Source of the DNA: a virus
Lineage: Duplodnaviria; Heunggongvirae; Uroviricota; Caudoviricetes
Length of the DNA: 4,795 nucleotides
Direction: 5' to 3' (one strand)
Virus record (IMG/VR): IMGVR_UViG_2645727555_000023
The notes beneath the pieces were generated by a model. That model had not been told where the DNA came from and made no database searches. It worked only from the letters and a program-made list of their open reading frames with translations. The position numbers and the translations under genes were made by a program. Of the stretch, positions 1 through 4,795 are shown one piece after another (the stretch's first letter is position 1; every line of letters starts with the position of its first letter).

Positions 1-85
1 CCATATAACCACCTGAAAGACAATGACATTGCCTGTTTTTATAACGGTAATTGCAGACCATGACAAGCCGCAGCCGTCAGGCTGC

Positions 86-178
86 CTACTCGGTAGAAAT
101 CAGCGACGGAACCAGTAAACCGTAGATGAGAGCCACTGAAAGGCCTGTGGCTACTGCCAATAGATAGATTTTGATCAT
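86..178 (-). CDS. Putative small hydrophobic peptide, 30 aa (MIKIYLLAVATGLSVALIYGLLVPSLISTE), probable single transmembrane helix
   Basis: Hand translation of the minus strand: ATG at 178-176, TAG stop at 88-86. AGGA Shine-Dalgarno at about 184-187, 5 nt upstream of the ATG. Not in the supplied ORF track (too short). Composition is almost entirely hydrophobic. No homolog recognised. Confidence 0.3.
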   Translation of the reverse strand: MIKIYLLAVATGLSVALIYGLLVPSLISTE

Positions 179-207
179 GTGTTTTCCTATGTGGTTGTTA
201 TGTGAAA

Positions 208-236
208 ATAATAAGTAAGTACTTATATATTTTCAA
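208..236 (-). promoter_or_regulatory. Candidate sigma70-type promoter (TTGAAA - 17 bp - TATTAT) reading toward the small peptide ORF
   Basis: On the minus strand: TTGAAA (236-231), 17-nt spacer, TATTAT (213-208); each hexamer is 5/6 to consensus. Lies directly after the recA terminator T-run and about 30 nt upstream of the peptide ATG. AT-rich context makes chance matches possible. Confidence 0.3.
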
Positions 237-240
237 GAGA

Positions 241-266
241 TAAAAAAGGCGTCCTGTGGACGCCTT
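241..266 (-). terminator. Rho-independent terminator downstream of the recombinase gene
   Basis: Minus-strand sequence right after the TAA stop (273-271): AAGGCGTCC-ACA-GGACGCCTT (9-bp GC-rich stem, 246-266) followed by TTTTTTA (247-241). On the plus strand it is preceded by an A-run and followed by T-rich TTGTGTTT, so it may act bidirectionally. Confidence 0.6.
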
Positions 267-270
267 GTGT

Positions 271-2610
271 TTACTCTTCTACTGACTCGGTGGGGTTGTC
301 TTTTGCTCTTCGGTCGTCGATTGCCTGCAAAGCCGCAATGATTTCAGCCAGTGGCTTCTCCCGATACATCTCGACGATCTGTGATTTGGTGTATTTCTTG
401 TCACCAATTTCAACTCGCCCGCTGGCGTTCTTTGGCAGGTATCCTTCATCCAGCATGTACTCGACGAGCGATTCGATAACGTCGAGGCCACGAGTAGGAT
501 CGAAGTAGAATTTCCAGGTGCATTTGCCATACGGTGGTGCAACTTTGTTTTTGATGCATTCTGCGCCTACGTCTTGGCCGATCTTCTCTTTACCATCCTT
601 CATCACCGATGCACCAAGACGGATACGTACAGAAGCGTAGAACTTCGGTGAATCTCCACCTGGCGACGTAGTAGGGTCGCCAAACATTACACCGATTTTT
701 GTGCGAACCTGATTCAAGAAGATGATGCAGGCGTTGTATTTGCGTGCCCACAAAGCCAGAGTAGGGAAGTTCGCACTCGTCGCACGAGCCAGTGCCGTAT
801 TGTCGTTCATGTTTAGCTGATCTTTGTCTTTGGCTGTGCCTTCAGCCATCTTTTCGAACTTCTCGGCTTTGGAGTTCGGAACCATAGACGCAAGAGAGTC
901 AGCCACGATACAGATTGGTGCTGATTCGGGGATAAGCTCTTCATCACGAACCAATTTAAGTATTGTGCCGATCAACTCTACAGAGTCTTCGAAGGTATCT
1001 GGCTGCTTGTATACCCACTGACCGTCATCCTCATCTGCGTTCAGGCCATTGGCTACAGCCAGGCCAACGTCAAAACTGTTTTCATGATCGAGGAATACCG
1101 CCAGACCATCTTGTTTTTGAGCGGAGATCATCGCTGCTGTTGCAAGGAATGTGTTGTGGCTGATAATCCCGTTAGACCAGAAAGAGTGTGTTTCCGGCAT
1201 CGCTACGTCGAACGTTGGTGCTTCACCTTCCTCAATAGCCACGACTTCGTCGTAGAACAAGTTAGAGCCAATTACCGCTGCCAGTTGTGCAAACAGATGC
1301 TCGTTAAAACGATTCTTTCTGCCAATGAAGGAGACATAGATTTCTCGCAGTTTGTCTATTCCGACACGATCGCCGCGGCCAATAACGTGGTCTACCAGAG
1401 CGTAGTCTTCACGGGTGGTCTTGGTGAGCGACTCGTAGAGTGATTTCACTAAGCCGCTGATGTGCGGAACATAGCCTGAGTAAGTGCGGTCAAAACCAAT
1501 GTCCCGTTTGGTTGCCACTGATAAACGTGCCGGAGATTCGAAACCAATCGTTGACAGAAAAAGGTCGTAATTAGAGCCACTGAATGACAGCCGGTAATAT
1601 GTATTTTCATAACCCGCGACGTGTTTTTCAGAGATAGTTGACGTAATCCCCAGATTCAGGAGCATGAGGCGAATTTGCTGTAGCAGCAGCCCACTCGCGC
1701 TTACAACCTCAATGCAGCGACCATCATTGACGTGGCATTCCAGCTCAAAGTAGCCGCGAAGGAATGCAATTTGAGCCTCGCTATTGGCGCGACGCACACT
1801 CAACGGAACCTGCTTGCCAGCAGCTTTCTCATACTCCAGACCATATTCTTTAAAAAGCAGCGAACGCACCTCTTTGCTAAACAGCACATGGTCTTCCGAG
1901 CCGTTATGTTTTCTCGTAACTGGCATCTTGTCTGATACCAGCGAAATGAGGCGGTAGTACTCATCCTTGATGAAAGGATCTGTGTTAGAAAAATTCACTG
2001 AATTTTCAGAGGCCACGTATCCGTCAGCAATTAAATAGCCCATCAGTTTTGCGATATTGGCATCCAGGTGCTGATCGCCGAATTGATGTGTGCCAACCAT
2101 TGAAGGAATCGTGTCGCCTACACTGATTTTTTCAGCATGTCGCCAGACGACATTACCTAAGTCGTCAACCACACGGATTGGGTGACGGAACGTAGCCTCG
2201 ATATAACCGCCTGATGCCAGCTTAATACGCTTGAATTTGCGACGGTTGTTCCATGTCAGGTGTGAGGTCTTCTCTATCACGCCATTTTCATTGATGAGTC
2301 CAACGTTATGCTCTACATCGCGAGTAGTGCATGTCGCTTTGTACCCTTCAATCTCAAACAACTCTTTCACTGTTACCATTCCACGCTCCGTCAGCAGCAT
2401 GGTGTCTGCGGTAACACATTTCCCCGCGCTTGGAGGACCGAATACTTCGACGATACGACCACATGGGAAGCCGCCATCGTAACGACCAGAAATAGCTTTG
2501 TTTAACGGTGGAAAGCCTGTATCAATCCAATGAGTTACTTTCTGAATTTCGTCGTTGCTACCGATTTTCTTTTTCAGAGCAAGTGCCAGTGCGGATTTTC
2601 CTTTTGCCAT
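271..2610 (-). CDS. recA: RecA-family recombinase precursor (779 aa) containing a 422-aa intein; predicted spliced product 357 aa
   Basis: Exteins align to bacterial RecA hallmarks: N-extein GRIVEVFGPPSAGK + C-extein TFLATAAMI rebuilds Walker A GPPSAGKT (RecA GPESSGKT); Walker B-like ICIVADSLASMVP; L2-loop region FLNQVRTKIGVMFGDPTTSPGGDSPKFYASVR closely matches RecA [32 protein letters not shown]. ATG at 2610 is preceded by AAAAGGAG 7 nt upstream. Symbol denotes RecA family; a phage-encoded homolog is likely. Confidence 0.9.
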   Translation of the reverse strand: MAKGKSALALALKKKIGSNDEIQKVTHWIDTGFPPLNKAISGRYDGGFPCGRIVEVFGPPSAGKCVTADTMLLTERGMVTVKELFEIEGYKATCTTRDVEHNVGLINENGVIEKTSHLTWNNRRKFKRIKLASGGYIEATFRHPIRVVDDLGNVVWRHAEKISVGDTIPSMVGTHQFGDQHLDANIAKLMGYLIADGYVASENSVNFSNTDPFIKDEYYRLISLVSDKMPVTRKHNGSEDHVLFSKEVRSLLFKEYGLEYEKAAGKQVPLSVRRANSEAQIAFLRGYFELECHVNDGRCIEVVSASGLLLQQIRLMLLNLGITSTISEKHVAGYENTYYRLSFSGSNYDLFLSTIGFESPARLSVATKRDIGFDRTYSGYVPHISGLVKSLYESLTKTTREDYALVDHVIGRGDRVGIDKLREIYVSFIGRKNRFNEHLFAQLAAVIGSNLFYDEVVAIEEGEAPTFDVAMPETHSFWSNGIISHNTFLATAAMISAQKQDGLAVFLDHENSFDVGLAVANGLNADEDDGQWVYKQPDTFEDSVELIGTILKLVRDEELIPESAPICIVADSLASMVPNSKAEKFEKMAEGTAKDKDQLNMNDNTALARATSANFPTLALWARKYNACIIFLNQVRTKIGVMFGDPTTSPGGDSPKFYASVRIRLGASVMKDGKEKIGQDVGAECIKNKVAPPYGKCTWKFYFDPTRGLDVIESLVEYMLDEGYLPKNASGRVEIGDKKYTKSQIVEMYREKPLAEIIAALQAIDDRRAKDNPTESVEE
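1153..2418 (-). mobile_element. Intein (422 aa) with LAGLIDADG homing-endonuclease domain, inserted in the recombinase P-loop between Lys64 and Thr(+1)
   Basis: Starts with Cys (TGT at 2418-2416) in a block-A-like CVTADTMLLTERG. Block B TFRHPIRVV (TxxH). Two LAGLIDADG motifs: LMGYLIADG (2046-2020) and LRGYFELEC (1761-1735). Blocks F/G TFDVAMPETHSFWSNGIISHN end in His-Asn (AAC at 1155-1153) followed by Thr +1. Removing it restores a contiguous 357-aa RecA. Confidence 0.85.
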
Positions 2611-2612
2611 GA

Positions 2613-2879
2613 TCAGGCTCCTTTTGTTTCGTTGATTCGTTTTACAGCGGCGGATTCATCGAATACAATCGCATCGTGGTTAAGGAGTCTGGATACACGA
2701 GCGAGGATTTTTACGACCTGCTCGCTGACTAATCCAAACTCGCGATCTGTCGCTTTCATTCCGGCAGCGCCTAGAATTGACGGCAGTGCGATGACAGCGT
2801 ACTCACCGTGATAAAAGACAATCTCTTTTGCCAGTTGGGCAGGGGTGGTTGTAGCGCCATTGATAATCGATTTAAGCAT
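2613..2879 (-). CDS. Hypothetical small protein (~88 aa), translationally coupled between the exonuclease and recombinase genes
   Basis: ORF track gives 2613..2885 from a TTG. The in-frame ATG at 2879-2877 overlaps the exonuclease TAA stop (2881-2879) as TAATG and is the more likely start. No recognisable motif; function unknown. Confidence 0.55.
   Translation of the reverse strand: MLKSIINGATTTPAQLAKEIVFYHGEYAVIALPSILGAAGMKATDREFGLVSEQVVKILARVSRLLNHDAIVFDESAAVKRINETKGA
2618..2624 (-). promoter_or_regulatory. Shine-Dalgarno (AAAAGGAG) for the recombinase gene, embedded in the 3' end of the upstream small ORF
   Basis: Minus-strand AAAAGGAG lies 7 nt upstream of ATG 2610 and overlaps the last codons (K-G-A) of the upstream ORF, whose TGA stop (2615-2613) sits 2 nt before the ATG: translational coupling. 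Confidence 0.6.
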
Positions 2880-3823
2880 TAGCAATACCTTTCGAATGGA
2901 AGAACAAACACTTCAAGGTCTTCAAGGAACGAACGGAAATTCAGCTCGTAGCACAGTTGCTCGAATGCTTTCACGTCACGATTGCCTTTGATTGTTTCGA
3001 TTTCGGTAGGCGGAAACTTCGTCTCAATCAGGTTCATTAGCGTGATGTTTCTCTTGAACGCTTCGAGCATTCGACAGCCTGTTTTCTCGTTGAAGGCATT
3101 CTTCGCTAGTTTGTTGAAGGCGGTCTTATGGCGTCCTTTGTCAACCACGATTGAGCCGTCGTTGATGCCGCGTACCATCGTTGCGACACTTCCCCATTCA
3201 TGCAGCAGCTCTTTCGCACCGCCAGCACCAATGCCACCAACACCGCTAATGTTGTCCGATTTATCGCCTTGTAATGCTTTTGCTTCCAAAAATGCGCGAG
3301 GAGTAGCGAATCCTGTCAGCTCCGCAAATTGCTCAAAATTAACCTGCTTGTTTTTGGCGTCTTCGCGCAGGCTTACCCAGCTTACGTTTTCGCGAACTAA
3401 CTGAAGCCAGTCGCTATCGCCTGTTAACAGATAGATGTGTTCAACGGTTGGCTGCGGTGCCATGCGGGATACCAGCAGCCCGGCCAGATCATCCGCTTCT
3501 GCATCTTTTGCAATGAGTTGGGTAACTCCAAGCGCGGTCATCATTTTGAGGATGTATGGCTTCTGGATAGCAAAGCCTTCCTTCATCTTTTTCATATCAG
3601 GATCGTCGTCGCGATTTGCTTTGTAGTCCGGGTAAAAGTCGCGACGCTTGTCACTAAATCCATCCCAAAGAATCATAGGTCGGGCATGGAGGATGGAGGC
3701 ATAACGACGGACGTTCTTAACAAAGCCGAAAGCAGCCTGTACTTCCATTTCGCCGTTGTGCAATTTGTCAGATTGTTGGTGGTAATAACCCAGGCTATTG
3801 CCATCTACGAAGAGATAATTCAC
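2879..3823 (-). CDS. 5'-3' exonuclease / flap endonuclease (FEN family, Pol I 5'-nuclease-like)
   Basis: N-terminal motif NYLFVDGNSLGYY (compare Pol I 5'-nuclease LILVDGSSYLYRAYHA), acidic cluster LLTGDSDWLQLV, and H3TH motif ALQGDKSDNISGVGGIGAGGAKELLHEWGS (compare Taq ALTGDESDNLPGVKGIGEKTARKLLEEWGS). ORF track starts at GTG 3874; the in-frame GTG at 3823-3821 with GGAAGGAA SD 8 nt upstream is preferred because codons 2-12 of the longer ORF are the terminator hairpin and T-run. Stop TAA at 2881-2879. Confidence 0.85.
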   Translation of the reverse strand: MNYLFVDGNSLGYYHQQSDKLHNGEMEVQAAFGFVKNVRRYASILHARPMILWDGFSDKRRDFYPDYKANRDDDPDMKKMKEGFAIQKPYILKMMTALGVTQLIAKDAEADDLAGLLVSRMAPQPTVEHIYLLTGDSDWLQLVRENVSWVSLREDAKNKQVNFEQFAELTGFATPRAFLEAKALQGDKSDNISGVGGIGAGGAKELLHEWGSVATMVRGINDGSIVVDKGRHKTAFNKLAKNAFNEKTGCRMLEAFKRNITLMNLIETKFPPTEIETIKGNRDVKAFEQLCYELNFRSFLEDLEVFVLPFERYC

Positions 3824-3838
3824 CGGTACATTCCTTCC

Positions 3839-3867
3839 AAAAAGTAAGGCGTCCGTAGACGCCTTAC
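3839..3867 (-). terminator. Rho-independent terminator or attenuator between the SSB-like gene and the exonuclease gene
   Basis: Minus strand, 17 nt after the SSB-like TAA stop: GTAAGGCGTC-TACG-GACGCCTTAC (10-bp stem, 3867-3844) followed by TTTTT (3843-3839), then the SD and GTG of the exonuclease. Stem arms AAGGCGTC/GACGCCTT are identical to those of the terminator at 246-266. Confidence 0.55.
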
Positions 3868-3883
3868 TGGTCACGTAATGGGA

Positions 3884-4651
3884 TTACAGAGAGTCCAGTT
3901 CTCTCAGTAGGTCATCCAGACCTTCATCTTCCGTCGCAGATGCGGTTGCTACAGATGTCGCTGCTACTGCTTCAGACTCTTTGACTGATACGGCAACGGC
4001 AGCGGAACTTGCTTCTGGTTTAAATTCAGTTTCAACGGCACGGAGGATTTCTTCATCAACCAGACTGGTTGGTTCAGAAGCTGGGGTGTGAGCGGTTGCT
4101 ACAGCAGTCGCACCCTCCGTATGACCAGTGACAGAGCCAAATCCAGGCAGTGCCGCGGCCGATGTTTTCGCGGTAGAGGAAATTGCTGGTGCAGATGCTG
4201 CGGCAGTTGGTGCAGCGATGCCAATCAGACGACCCATAGTGCGAACTGTCGACAGAAGACGAGTTTCATCAGCCTGATTTGCGTATGCGATCAGATCATG
4301 CTGGGTGTTCCAGAATTTATCTTCGATATCGCCTTTGTAGACTTTACGCTTAGGCGAGACGTCATATTTGGTATCGCGACCAGAACCAGTACGTTTAATC
4401 AGGAATGCGTAGCCTTCCTCTTTGCTCAGTGGATTGCCGATATCATCAGCGATGTCTTCGGTGATTGCTTTGCAGATATCATCGAATACAGTAGACGGCA
4501 GCTCGATTAACTGGCATTTCTCAGCATCTGCGAAATCCTCACGAGCAGAAAGAATGCCGTTGACCAGGTAGCGAGGAGTGGCACGCATTTGACCGATGCG
4601 TTCTTCCATTGCTTTGTTACCCTTGTGACGAGCGCGACCTTCCATAACCAT
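3884..4651 (-). CDS. Putative ssDNA-binding protein (gp32-like features), probably a 3' fragment of a gene disrupted by the adjacent IS element
   Basis: Long Ala/Ser/Thr-rich low-complexity linker ending in acidic tail EDEGLDDLLRELDSL, typical of SSB C-termini. The frame stays open upstream of the first ATG up to the IS boundary (4701) and encodes C-x8-C-x2-C (YICEQHTHGRACQLCEM), reminiscent of the T4 gp32 zinc site. No Shine-Dalgarno precedes ATG 4651 or 4645. Functional call is motif-level only. Confidence 0.5.
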   Translation of the reverse strand: MVMEGRARHKGNKAMEERIGQMRATPRYLVNGILSAREDFADAEKCQLIELPSTVFDDICKAITEDIADDIGNPLSKEEGYAFLIKRTGSGRDTKYDVSPKRKVYKGDIEDKFWNTQHDLIAYANQADETRLLSTVRTMGRLIGIAAPTAAASAPAISSTAKTSAAALPGFGSVTGHTEGATAVATAHTPASEPTSLVDEEILRAVETEFKPEASSAAVAVSVKESEAVAATSVATASATEDEGLDDLLRELDSL

Positions 4652-4701
4652 TTCGCATAGCTGACAAGCGCGACCGTGAGTATGTTGCTCACAAATATAA
4701 G

Positions 4702-4795
4702 TGAACCGCCCCGGGAATCCTGGAGACTAAACTTCCTGAGAAAGAGGTAAACAGGATGACTAAAAATACTCGTTTTTCCCCTGAAGTCCGTCAAC
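4702..4795 (+). mobile_element. Left end of an IS3-family insertion sequence (IS629/IS1203-like), continuing beyond the window
   Basis: Sequence begins TGAACCGCCCCGGG at 4702 (IS3-family termini start 5'-TG). It is followed by GAGG SD and an ATG at 4756 opening an ORF MTKNTRFSPEVRQ..., which matches from memory the N-terminus of IS629-group OrfA transposases. Exact IS identity is unverified. Confidence 0.7.
4756..4795 (+). CDS. IS3-family transposase OrfA, N-terminal 13 codons (partial, runs off window)
   Basis: ATG at 4756-4758 with GAGGT 7 nt upstream; translation MTKNTRFSPEVRQ. Recognition is from recalled IS629/IS1203 OrfA sequence. Confidence 0.7.
   Translation, partial: MTKNTRFSPEVRQ

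What the first reader, a model, noticed from the sequence alone, without database searches (positions are those of the whole stretch)
4640..4795. IS3-family element inserted into the 5' part of the SSB-like gene
The IS end (TGAACCGCCCCGGG, from 4702) lies 50 nt upstream of the first ATG of the SSB-like ORF. Those 50 nt are in frame with no stop and encode a Cys-x8-Cys-x2-Cys motif, and there is no Shine-Dalgarno before ATG 4651 or 4645. The simplest reading is that the IS split the gene, leaving its N-terminal part (and promoter) on the far side of the IS outside this window. That would inactivate the first gene of the module and could place the downstream genes under IS-derived or read-through transcription.
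Basis: partly seen in the sequence, partly recalled or inferred. Interest (0 to 1): 0.65.

Follow-up and report, generated by a model that had tools for sequence, protein, structure and literature searches.

The report
IS629 insertion truncating phage-plasmid SSB gene
The right end of this short E. coli assembly contig is the tip of a common jumping gene (an IS629-type insertion sequence) sitting inside a T4 gp32-like single-strand-DNA-binding gene of an SSU5-type phage-plasmid. It cuts off the first 70 codons, which is a real but ordinary gene knock-out.

Summary
Window 4702-4795 is 100% identical to the left end of a 1310-bp IS3-family element of the IS629 type. Homology to about 108-kb SSU5-like E. 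coli phage-plasmids stops exactly at 4701|4702.

In those relatives the minus-strand gene is a 342-aa gp32-family SSB (Pfam PF08804, E 1.7e-66) with a strong Shine-Dalgarno sequence. Here it is cut inside codon 71. It loses its start, ribosome-binding site, 70 codons and the first 59 positions of the gp32 profile. The 50-nt in-frame remnant carries the Cys-x8-Cys-x2-Cys motif that aligns with the T4 gp32 zinc cysteines.

Three points need correction or caution:
- The window is a whole 4795-bp draft contig whose two ends are each 94 nt of IS (an IS91-family end on the left). The far side, the 5' half and the target duplication cannot be checked, and none of my searches recovered them.
- The IS transposase gene points away from the SSB gene, and no outward promoter-like site is found.
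- In relatives the SSB gene is preceded by same-strand genes, so it is not clearly the first gene of a module.

This is an ordinary IS knock-out, and an independent ISEc23 insertion in the same gene exists in a complete plasmid. Interest is low.

The parts
4702..4795 (+). First 94 nt (IRL end) of an IS629-type IS3-family insertion sequence; the contig ends inside the element
   Evidence: 94/94 identity to IS copies in thousands of E. coli records. The reference copy L005 2001-3310 is 1310 bp with matching IRs and a frameshifted orfAB.
4702..4715 (+). Terminal inverted-repeat core TGAACCGCCCCGGG (IRL)
   Evidence: Identical 14-nt core at both ends of the reference copy. The homology break to intact plasmids falls exactly before the T at 4702.
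4756..4795 (+). First 13 codons of IS orfA (MTKNTRFSPEVRQ), reading away from the SSB gene
   Evidence: Offset 54 from the IS end, equal to the CDS start at 2055 in L005. The reference OrfA is PF01527 HTH_Tnp_1 and the reference OrfB is PF00665 rve.
3884..4701 (-). 5'-truncated T4 gp32-like SSB gene: last 2 nt of codon 71 through codon 342 plus the stop
   Evidence: 99.2% identical to the 3' 818 nt of the 1029-nt intact gene in L001. Pfam PF08804 gp32: the intact protein covers profile positions 1-208, the remnant only 60-208.
4652..4701 (-). In-frame remnant upstream of the first ATG. It encodes Y72-E87 with Cys74, Cys83 and Cys86, which correspond to the gp32 zinc-site cysteines
   Evidence: Translation.
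4699..4701 (.). AAG: the 3 bp expected to be duplicated on the far side of the IS if this is a simple insertion (TAAG, 4698-4701, if 4 bp)
   Evidence: Inference. IS629 makes 3-4 bp duplications (PMC3271280). Not verifiable in this contig.
3838..3870 (-). Terminator-like hairpin plus U-run between the SSB stop and the GTG start of the FEN gene (3823)
   Evidence: Fold -22.2 kcal/mol, z -3.1, followed by UUUUU. It was missed by the consensus scan.
271..3823 (-). Downstream genes of the same array: 5'-3' exonuclease (2879-3823), orf88 (2613-2879) and RecA with an intein (271-2610). All are intact
   Evidence: ORFs, Pfam, and the same order in intact relatives.
1..93 (.). Second repeat boundary: the end of an IS91-family element that truncates the 66-aa ORF downstream of recA to 30 aa (ORF 86-178, minus strand)
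   Evidence: 93-94 nt at 100% identity to IS91-family element ends. Phage-plasmid homology starts at 89-95. Truncation shown.

Best explanation
The window is a complete short-read contig: GCA_001297725.1, DF970385.1, 4795 bp. It holds 4.6 kb of an SSU5-type E. coli phage-plasmid.

At its right end, the left terminal repeat of a multicopy IS629-type IS3-family element abuts codon 71 of the element's T4 gp32-like SSB gene. The gene has lost the following:
- its Shine-Dalgarno sequence and start codon
- 70 N-terminal codons, which hold the N-terminal segment (in T4 gp32 this segment mediates cooperative binding) and the candidate His zinc ligand
- the first 59 positions of the gp32 profile

No usable start remains in front of the three zinc cysteines. 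The gene is therefore a null pseudogene. At best, an 88-342 fragment lacking all zinc ligands could be made from ATG 4651, which has no Shine-Dalgarno sequence.

The most likely origin is a simple transposition (shown: the precise IS-end junction; inferred: the 5' half and an AAG/TAAG duplication 1.3 kb away on the far side). The assembler stopped there because the IS is repeated in the genome, just as it stopped in an IS91-family end at the other contig end.

The likely consequence is loss of the phage-type SSB, and so probably of efficient lytic or recombination-dependent replication. Plasmid maintenance would continue. Both consequences are inferred.
For: - Source contig identified.
- IS end is 94/94 identical to IS copies in 3553 genomes.
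- The complete 1310-bp copy has matching IRs, a frameshifted transposase, and HTH_Tnp_1 plus rve domains.
- Homology to more than 160 plasmids at about 99% ends exactly at 4701.
- The intact gene is 342 aa, with AAGGAG before its ATG.
- Pfam gp32 E 1.7e-66; the remnant covers only profile positions 60-208.
- SSU5 and related phages carry the full gene, annotated 'SSB T4 gp32-like' or 'single strand DNA binding protein'.
- The gene is found only on plasmids, in 243 of 5426 complete genomes, and 239 of these have it full length.
- The complete plasmid pEC16-526_1 has an independent ISEc23 insertion in the same gene with both halves kept, which shows the replicon tolerates loss of this gene.
- IS629 inserts mostly in prophage DNA and makes 3-4 bp duplications (PMC3271280).
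- Both contig ends carry 94 nt of IS, the signature of assembly breaks at repeats.
Against: - The far side of the IS is not in the window and could not be recovered. Predicted N-terminal/IS fusion products are absent from the protein collection. No such fragment appears among the top homology hits. Junction patterns have no match in the genome, metagenome or viral collections. These collections do not give access to the other contigs of this assembly, so the negative results are weak.
- Only 94 nt of the IS are seen, so its completeness here is assumed.
- The functional consequences are inferred, not measured.
Confidence: 0.9

Rival explanations
1. The IS is next to the truncated gene, but the 5' half is not on its far side. 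An IS629-mediated adjacent deletion, inversion, or recombination between IS copies removed or relocated it. In that case the 4.6-kb segment is an IS-flanked remnant of a decayed phage-plasmid, possibly now in another replicon.
For: - The segment is bounded by two different IS ends within 4.7 kb.
- In O157:H7 only 21 of 47 IS629 copies have matching flanking duplications (PMC3271280).
- No 5'-half/IS fusion product was found.
Against: - The negative searches cannot see the rest of this assembly.
- All 247 occurrences of the gene in complete genomes are on about 105-120-kb plasmids, never on chromosomes.
- The one other IS-disrupted copy is a simple insertion with both halves retained.
Confidence: 0.3
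2. The junction is an assembly chimera: a mis-join of a phage-plasmid contig to IS reads, with no IS really at this site.
For: The source is a draft short-read assembly, and the contig ends in repeats.
Against: - The break falls exactly at the first base of the IS terminal repeat, as real transposition requires and as a random mis-join would not.
- Ending about k-1 bases into a repeat is normal assembler behaviour and is seen at both ends.
Confidence: 0.02
3. The ORF starting at Met 4651 (255 aa) is the genuine, complete gene, and the IS merely lies upstream of it.
For: A 255-aa product identical to this ORF is on record in two other assemblies.
Against: - Those two contigs simply end 25 and 36 nt upstream of the ATG, before the IS site. 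Partner contigs in other assemblies carry the N-terminal part through 'CQLCEMV', so the 255-aa products are contig-end artefacts.
- All complete homologues start 87 codons earlier.
- There is no Shine-Dalgarno sequence before 4651.
Confidence: 0.01

Closest known systems
IS629 (isoforms IS1203 and IS3411), IS3 family, of E. coli and Shigella
   Same: - The 94 nt present are identical to copies that are 1310 bp long.
- Those copies carry TGAACCGCCCCGGG terminal repeats and an orfA/orfB transposase with a programmed frameshift.
- They occur at up to 40 or more copies in EHEC O145 genomes.
- IS629 inserts preferentially in prophage-like DNA (PMC3271280).
- The name IS629 for this end sequence comes from my own knowledge of ISfinder. 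The records used here say only 'IS3 family transposase'.
   Different: Nothing distinguishes it. Only the end is visible here, and the insertion site (codon 71 of the phage-plasmid SSB gene) was not found in any complete genome or PLSDB plasmid.
T4 gp32-family single-strand DNA-binding proteins (Pfam PF08804), as encoded by Salmonella phage SSU5 and its phage-plasmid relatives
   Same: - Full-length match to the gp32 profile in intact relatives.
- Cys-x8-Cys-x2-Cys aligned to the T4 Cys77/87/90 zinc site.
- Acidic C-terminal tail (…DEGLDDLLRELDSL) resembling the T4 tail (…DLDDLLNDL, from memory).
- 87.6% identity to the SSU5 SSB.
   Different: - The copy in the window lacks the first 70 codons and is a pseudogene.
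- The spacing is C-x8-C rather than the C-x9-C of T4.
- Pairwise similarity to T4 gp32 itself is weak (E 0.064).
- No solved structure is detectable by sequence.
ISEc23 (IS66 family) insertion in the same gene in plasmid pEC16-526_1 (NZ_CP184119.1)
   Same: An independent IS knock-out of the same SSB gene in the same phage-plasmid family. The downstream FEN, orf88 and recA genes are intact.
   Different: - A different IS family and a different site (about nt 292-300 of the gene, against nt 211).
- Both halves and an approximately 8-9-nt overlap are visible there because the record is complete.

Membership tests
IS3 family insertion sequence (IS629 type) | Terminal inverted repeats beginning 5'-TG | tested here: met
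   The window carries IRL TGAACCGCCCCGGG at 4702. In the identical reference copy, IRL and IRR match at 23 of the first 25 positions.
IS3 family insertion sequence (IS629 type) | Two overlapping ORFs (orfA with an HTH domain, orfB with a DDE/rve domain) fused by a programmed -1 frameshift | tested here: inconclusive
   Only the first 13 codons of orfA lie in the window. In the reference copy that is identical over the shared 94 nt, the CDS is annotated with a programmed frameshift, with PF01527 in OrfA and PF00665 in OrfB.
IS3 family insertion sequence (IS629 type) | 3-4 bp target-site duplication flanking the element | not testable with these tools
   The contig ends inside the IS. Searches for the partner junction found nothing.
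IS3 family insertion sequence (IS629 type) | Empty site in close relatives, with the break exactly at the IS terminus | tested here: met
   More than 160 plasmids at about 99% identity continue uninterrupted through the site. The break is at 4701|4702.
T4 gp32-like SSB (PF08804) | Significant match to the gp32 profile over its whole length | tested here: met
   Intact relative: E 1.7e-66, profile positions 1-208 of 208. Window remnant: E 4.2e-44, profile positions 60-208 only.
T4 gp32-like SSB (PF08804) | Zinc-binding His plus three Cys subdomain | tested here: inconclusive
   The three Cys residues are present and align to T4 C77, C87 and C90. The candidate His (H56 of the intact protein) lies in the missing part, and its equivalence to T4 H64 is not established.
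T4 gp32-like SSB (PF08804) | ssDNA-binding activity | not testable with these tools
   No biochemical data are available. The function is inferred from family membership and from the annotations of SSU5 and Cyrano.
SSU5-type phage-plasmid | Synteny and high identity with SSU5-group elements (about 100-115-kb plasmids carrying phage replication and recombination genes plus a plasmid Rep) | tested here: met
   - Window 89-4701 is about 99% identical to 105-115-kb E. coli plasmids.
- Neighbours in relatives include dnaE, a Rep3 protein and an SbcCD-like pair.
- The SSB is 87.6% identical to that of phage SSU5.
- The SSU5 group is described in PMC7969092.
- Whether the rest of the element is present in this strain was not tested.

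The most novel reading that the evidence does not exclude
The two IS hits within 4.7 kb (IS629 in the SSB gene, an IS91-family element in orf66) could mark a phage-plasmid being converted into a plain plasmid by loss of its lytic replication module.

Alternatively, the residual 88-342 fragment could be expressed. It has no zinc site and no N-terminal segment, but it keeps the acidic C-terminal tail, which in T4 gp32 recruits partner proteins. Such a fragment could act as a dominant-negative decoy against superinfecting SSU5-type phages.
Probability: 0.04. Interest if true: 0.4.

Novelty: already known. Interest (0 to 1): 0.1.

Why it matters
It matters little beyond annotation.
- The 255-aa ORF should be called a pseudogene, specifically an IS-disrupted gp32-like SSB. 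It should not be called a 'regulator' or 'hypothetical protein', as many records name this family.
- This copy of the phage-plasmid is probably defective for phage-type replication.
- It adds one example, alongside pEC16-526_1, showing that SSU5-type elements persist as plasmids without their own SSB. This fits published views that phage-plasmids decay into defective or hybrid elements (abstract of PMC12977533).

Tried and rejected
- I looked for the source junction in complete E. coli genomes and in PLSDB. No record contains it.
- I tried to recover the other side of the IS three ways, all negative: exact look-up of the predicted N-terminal/IS fusion products for 3-, 4- and 5-bp duplications and for both the E64 and D64 alleles; a homology search with the predicted fusion, which was swamped by unrelated genes that read into IS629 ends; and exact junction patterns in GTDB representative genomes, JGI metagenomes and IMG/VR. 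None of these collections gives access to the remaining contigs of GCA_001297725.1, so the negatives carry little weight.
- I considered that two other assemblies with the same 255-aa ORF share the insertion. I rejected this because their contigs stop 25 and 36 nt upstream of the ATG, before the IS site. N-terminal partial proteins in other assemblies end at varying points across residues 34-89, some beyond the IS site.
- A sequence search of the PDB with the intact protein found nothing at E up to 1.
- The first annotation under the left-end match suggested an IS21 element. Inspection showed an IS91-family element inserted into istB.
- Promoter scans gave nothing above chance.

Full report
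**What the window is.** The 4795 bases are the whole of one draft-assembly contig, NCBI GCA_001297725.1 record DF970385.1, in reverse orientation. All genes are on the minus strand:
- an SSB-like ORF (3884-4651)
- a 5'-3' exonuclease (2879-3823, GTG start)
- an 88-aa ORF (2613-2879)
- a 779-aa RecA carrying a LAGLIDADG intein (271-2610)

Window 89-4701 is about 99% identical to more than 160 E. coli plasmids of 105-115 kb. In relatives, the neighbouring genes are dnaE, a Rep3 replication protein and an SbcCD-like pair. The SSB is 87.6% identical to that of Salmonella phage SSU5 and 100% identical over the aligned 299 residues (87% of the protein) to Escherichia phages Cyrano and PhiR41_1. The DNA therefore belongs to the SSU5 group of phage-plasmids described in PMC7969092.

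**Checking the observation.** TGAACCGCCCCGGG begins at 4702. Window 4702-4795 matches 94/94 nt (E 5e-41) to elements found in 3553 of 5426 complete E. coli genomes, with up to 40 or more copies per record.

I read one complete copy, L005 2001-3310. It is 1310 bp and ends in the inverted repeat …CCCGGGGCGGTTCA. Its CDS is annotated 'IS3 family transposase, programmed frameshift' and starts 54 nt from the end. Its OrfA is PF01527 and its OrfB is PF00665. Length, ends and host range fit IS629 and its isoforms IS1203 and IS3411. The name itself rests on my own knowledge. In the window the orfA ATG is at 4756.

An alignment with an intact plasmid shows perfect identity up to 4701 and no similarity from 4702 onward. 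Three further relatives give the same boundary.

The 50 nt at 4652-4701 are in frame with ATG 4651, contain no stop, and encode YICEQHTHGRACQLCE, which is Cys-x8-Cys-x2-Cys. Upstream, the frame closes with a stop 8 codons inside the IS, and no start codon lies in between. No Shine-Dalgarno core precedes ATG 4651 or 4645.

**What the gene is and what it lost.** In plasmid WEM25 p1 the gene is 1029 nt (342 aa), starts MSKTLLDLL…, and has AAGGAG 6 nt before its ATG. Pfam gp32 (PF08804) matches residues 30-230 over the whole 208-position profile at E 1.7e-66. The window's ORF matches only profile positions 60-208.

The IS junction lies after the first base of codon 71. That leaves 211 nt (70 codons), the ribosome-binding site and any promoter missing from this side.

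Its probable His partner (H56) and the N-terminal segment are on the lost side. Translation from Met88 (4651) would lack all the cysteines as well. The gene is a pseudogene. The inactivation is inferred from these losses and was not measured.

**How general the intact state is.** The gene occurs in 243 of 5426 complete E. coli genomes, always on plasmids. It is uninterrupted over at least 80% of its length in 239 of them. No complete genome or PLSDB plasmid has the junction seen here.

One complete plasmid, pEC16-526_1, has an independent ISEc23 (IS66-family) insertion at about nt 292-300 of the same gene. Both halves are retained and the downstream genes are intact. The replicon therefore survives as a plasmid without this SSB. 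This supports the inference that the gene serves the phage or recombination side of the life cycle rather than plasmid maintenance.

**Why the window stops there, and the second IS.** The left end of the contig (1 to about 93) is 100% identical to the end of an IS91-family element. It cuts a 66-aa ORF downstream of recA to 30 aa. Both contig ends thus consist of 94 nt of a repeated element, which is the usual picture of a de Bruijn assembler stopping at repeats. It follows that the far side of the IS629-type element cannot be read from this window.

**The far side.** I tried to find it and failed:
- Predicted fusion products for 3-, 4- and 5-bp duplications and two alleles are not on record.
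- A homology search with the predicted fusion returned no N-terminal fragment with an IS tail.
- Junction patterns hit nothing in the three contig collections.

None of these gives access to the other contigs of this assembly, so the result is 'not testable' rather than negative. IS629 makes 3-4 bp duplications, but only 21 of 47 copies in O157:H7 genomes still show them (PMC3271280). I therefore give about 0.6-0.65 to a simple insertion with AAG or TAAG duplicated, and about 0.3 to an IS-associated deletion or rearrangement.

Two other assemblies with the same 255-aa ORF do not share the insertion. Their contigs end before the IS site. N-terminal partial proteins in other assemblies end at varying points across residues 34-89, and several extend past the IS site.

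**Transcription.** The IS orfA reads rightward, away from the leftward SSB gene. The consensus scan finds no promoter-like site on either strand in 3700-4795 and none in the complete IS copy. IS-driven expression is therefore unsupported. Read-through from a native promoter would have to cross 1.3 kb antisense to the transposase.

In intact relatives a 117-nt spacer with one weak promoter-like site (9 of 12) precedes the SSB gene, and same-strand genes (a 134/143-aa ORF, then dnaE) lie further upstream. 'First gene of the module' is therefore possible but not shown.

A strong hairpin with a U-run (3838-3870, -22.2 kcal/mol, z -3.1) separates the SSB gene from the exonuclease gene. A clearer terminator follows recA. 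How the downstream genes are transcribed, with or without the IS, remains open.

**Verdict.** This is a real, precisely bounded insertion-sequence junction that truncates a gp32-family SSB gene of an SSU5-type phage-plasmid. Its remarks on the far side and on transcription are untested or unsupported. The phenomenon is an ordinary IS knock-out by a very common E. coli element, so novelty is 'already known' and interest is low.

Noticed in passing
window 1-93 (junction somewhere in 88-94); ORF 86-178 minus strand: The left contig end is the end of an IS91-family element, 100% identical to copies in ETEC plasmids. It truncates a 66-aa putative membrane ORF to 30 aa. The intact target reads CTCTTGGTAG, which contains CTTG. 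From memory, CTTG is a known IS91 target tetranucleotide.
   Followed up: partly
window 1153-2418 minus strand (codons 65-486 of the RecA ORF at 271-2610): A 422-aa LAGLIDADG intein (Cys1 … His-Asn, then Thr+1) sits in the RecA P-loop, GPPSAGK|T. Plasmids WEM25 p1 and pEC16-526_1 carry a 357-aa RecA; aligned against WEM25 p1, that protein lacks the intein and is otherwise about 98% identical. The intein is therefore polymorphic in this phage-plasmid family.
   Followed up: partly
window 1-94 and 4702-4795: Both contig ends carry the same length (94 nt) of two different IS elements. This points to assembler k-mer overlap at repeat boundaries, so the contig's neighbours are unresolved.
   Followed up: yes
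L002 1-120, L004 1-130; proteins P0005 and P0121-P0134: Many draft E. coli assemblies break inside the first 90 codons or so of this SSB gene, with partial products of 34-89 aa. The break lies near a polymorphic E/D64 codon and a T/G synonymous site. This yields spurious '255-aa' and 'regulator, partial' proteins. The cause was not determined; it could be co-resident related plasmids or assembler behaviour.
   Followed up: partly
L007 1564-5876 compared with L008 3512-7030: In one relative (ENA ERZ27281615 contig) the dnaE gene is split into 787-aa and 389-aa parts by a 244-aa HNH/NUMOD3 endonuclease gene. In other relatives dnaE is a single 1172-aa ORF. This may be a mobile intron or a free-standing homing endonuclease.
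   Followed up: no
annotations: The gp32-family SSB of these plasmids is mostly annotated 'hypothetical protein' or 'regulator'. Only a few records say 'T4-gp32 family ssDNA-binding protein' or 'SSB T4 gp32-like'. Protein cluster 4 also mixes 314-aa exonuclease entries with 342-aa 'regulator' entries.
   Followed up: no
L005 1909-2000: The IS629-type reference copy in pRM9872-1 is itself inserted into what looks like the left end of another IS3-family element. It begins TGAGGTAGCCTGAGTTTAACGGACAC, which I recall as IS600-like. This was not checked.
   Followed up: no
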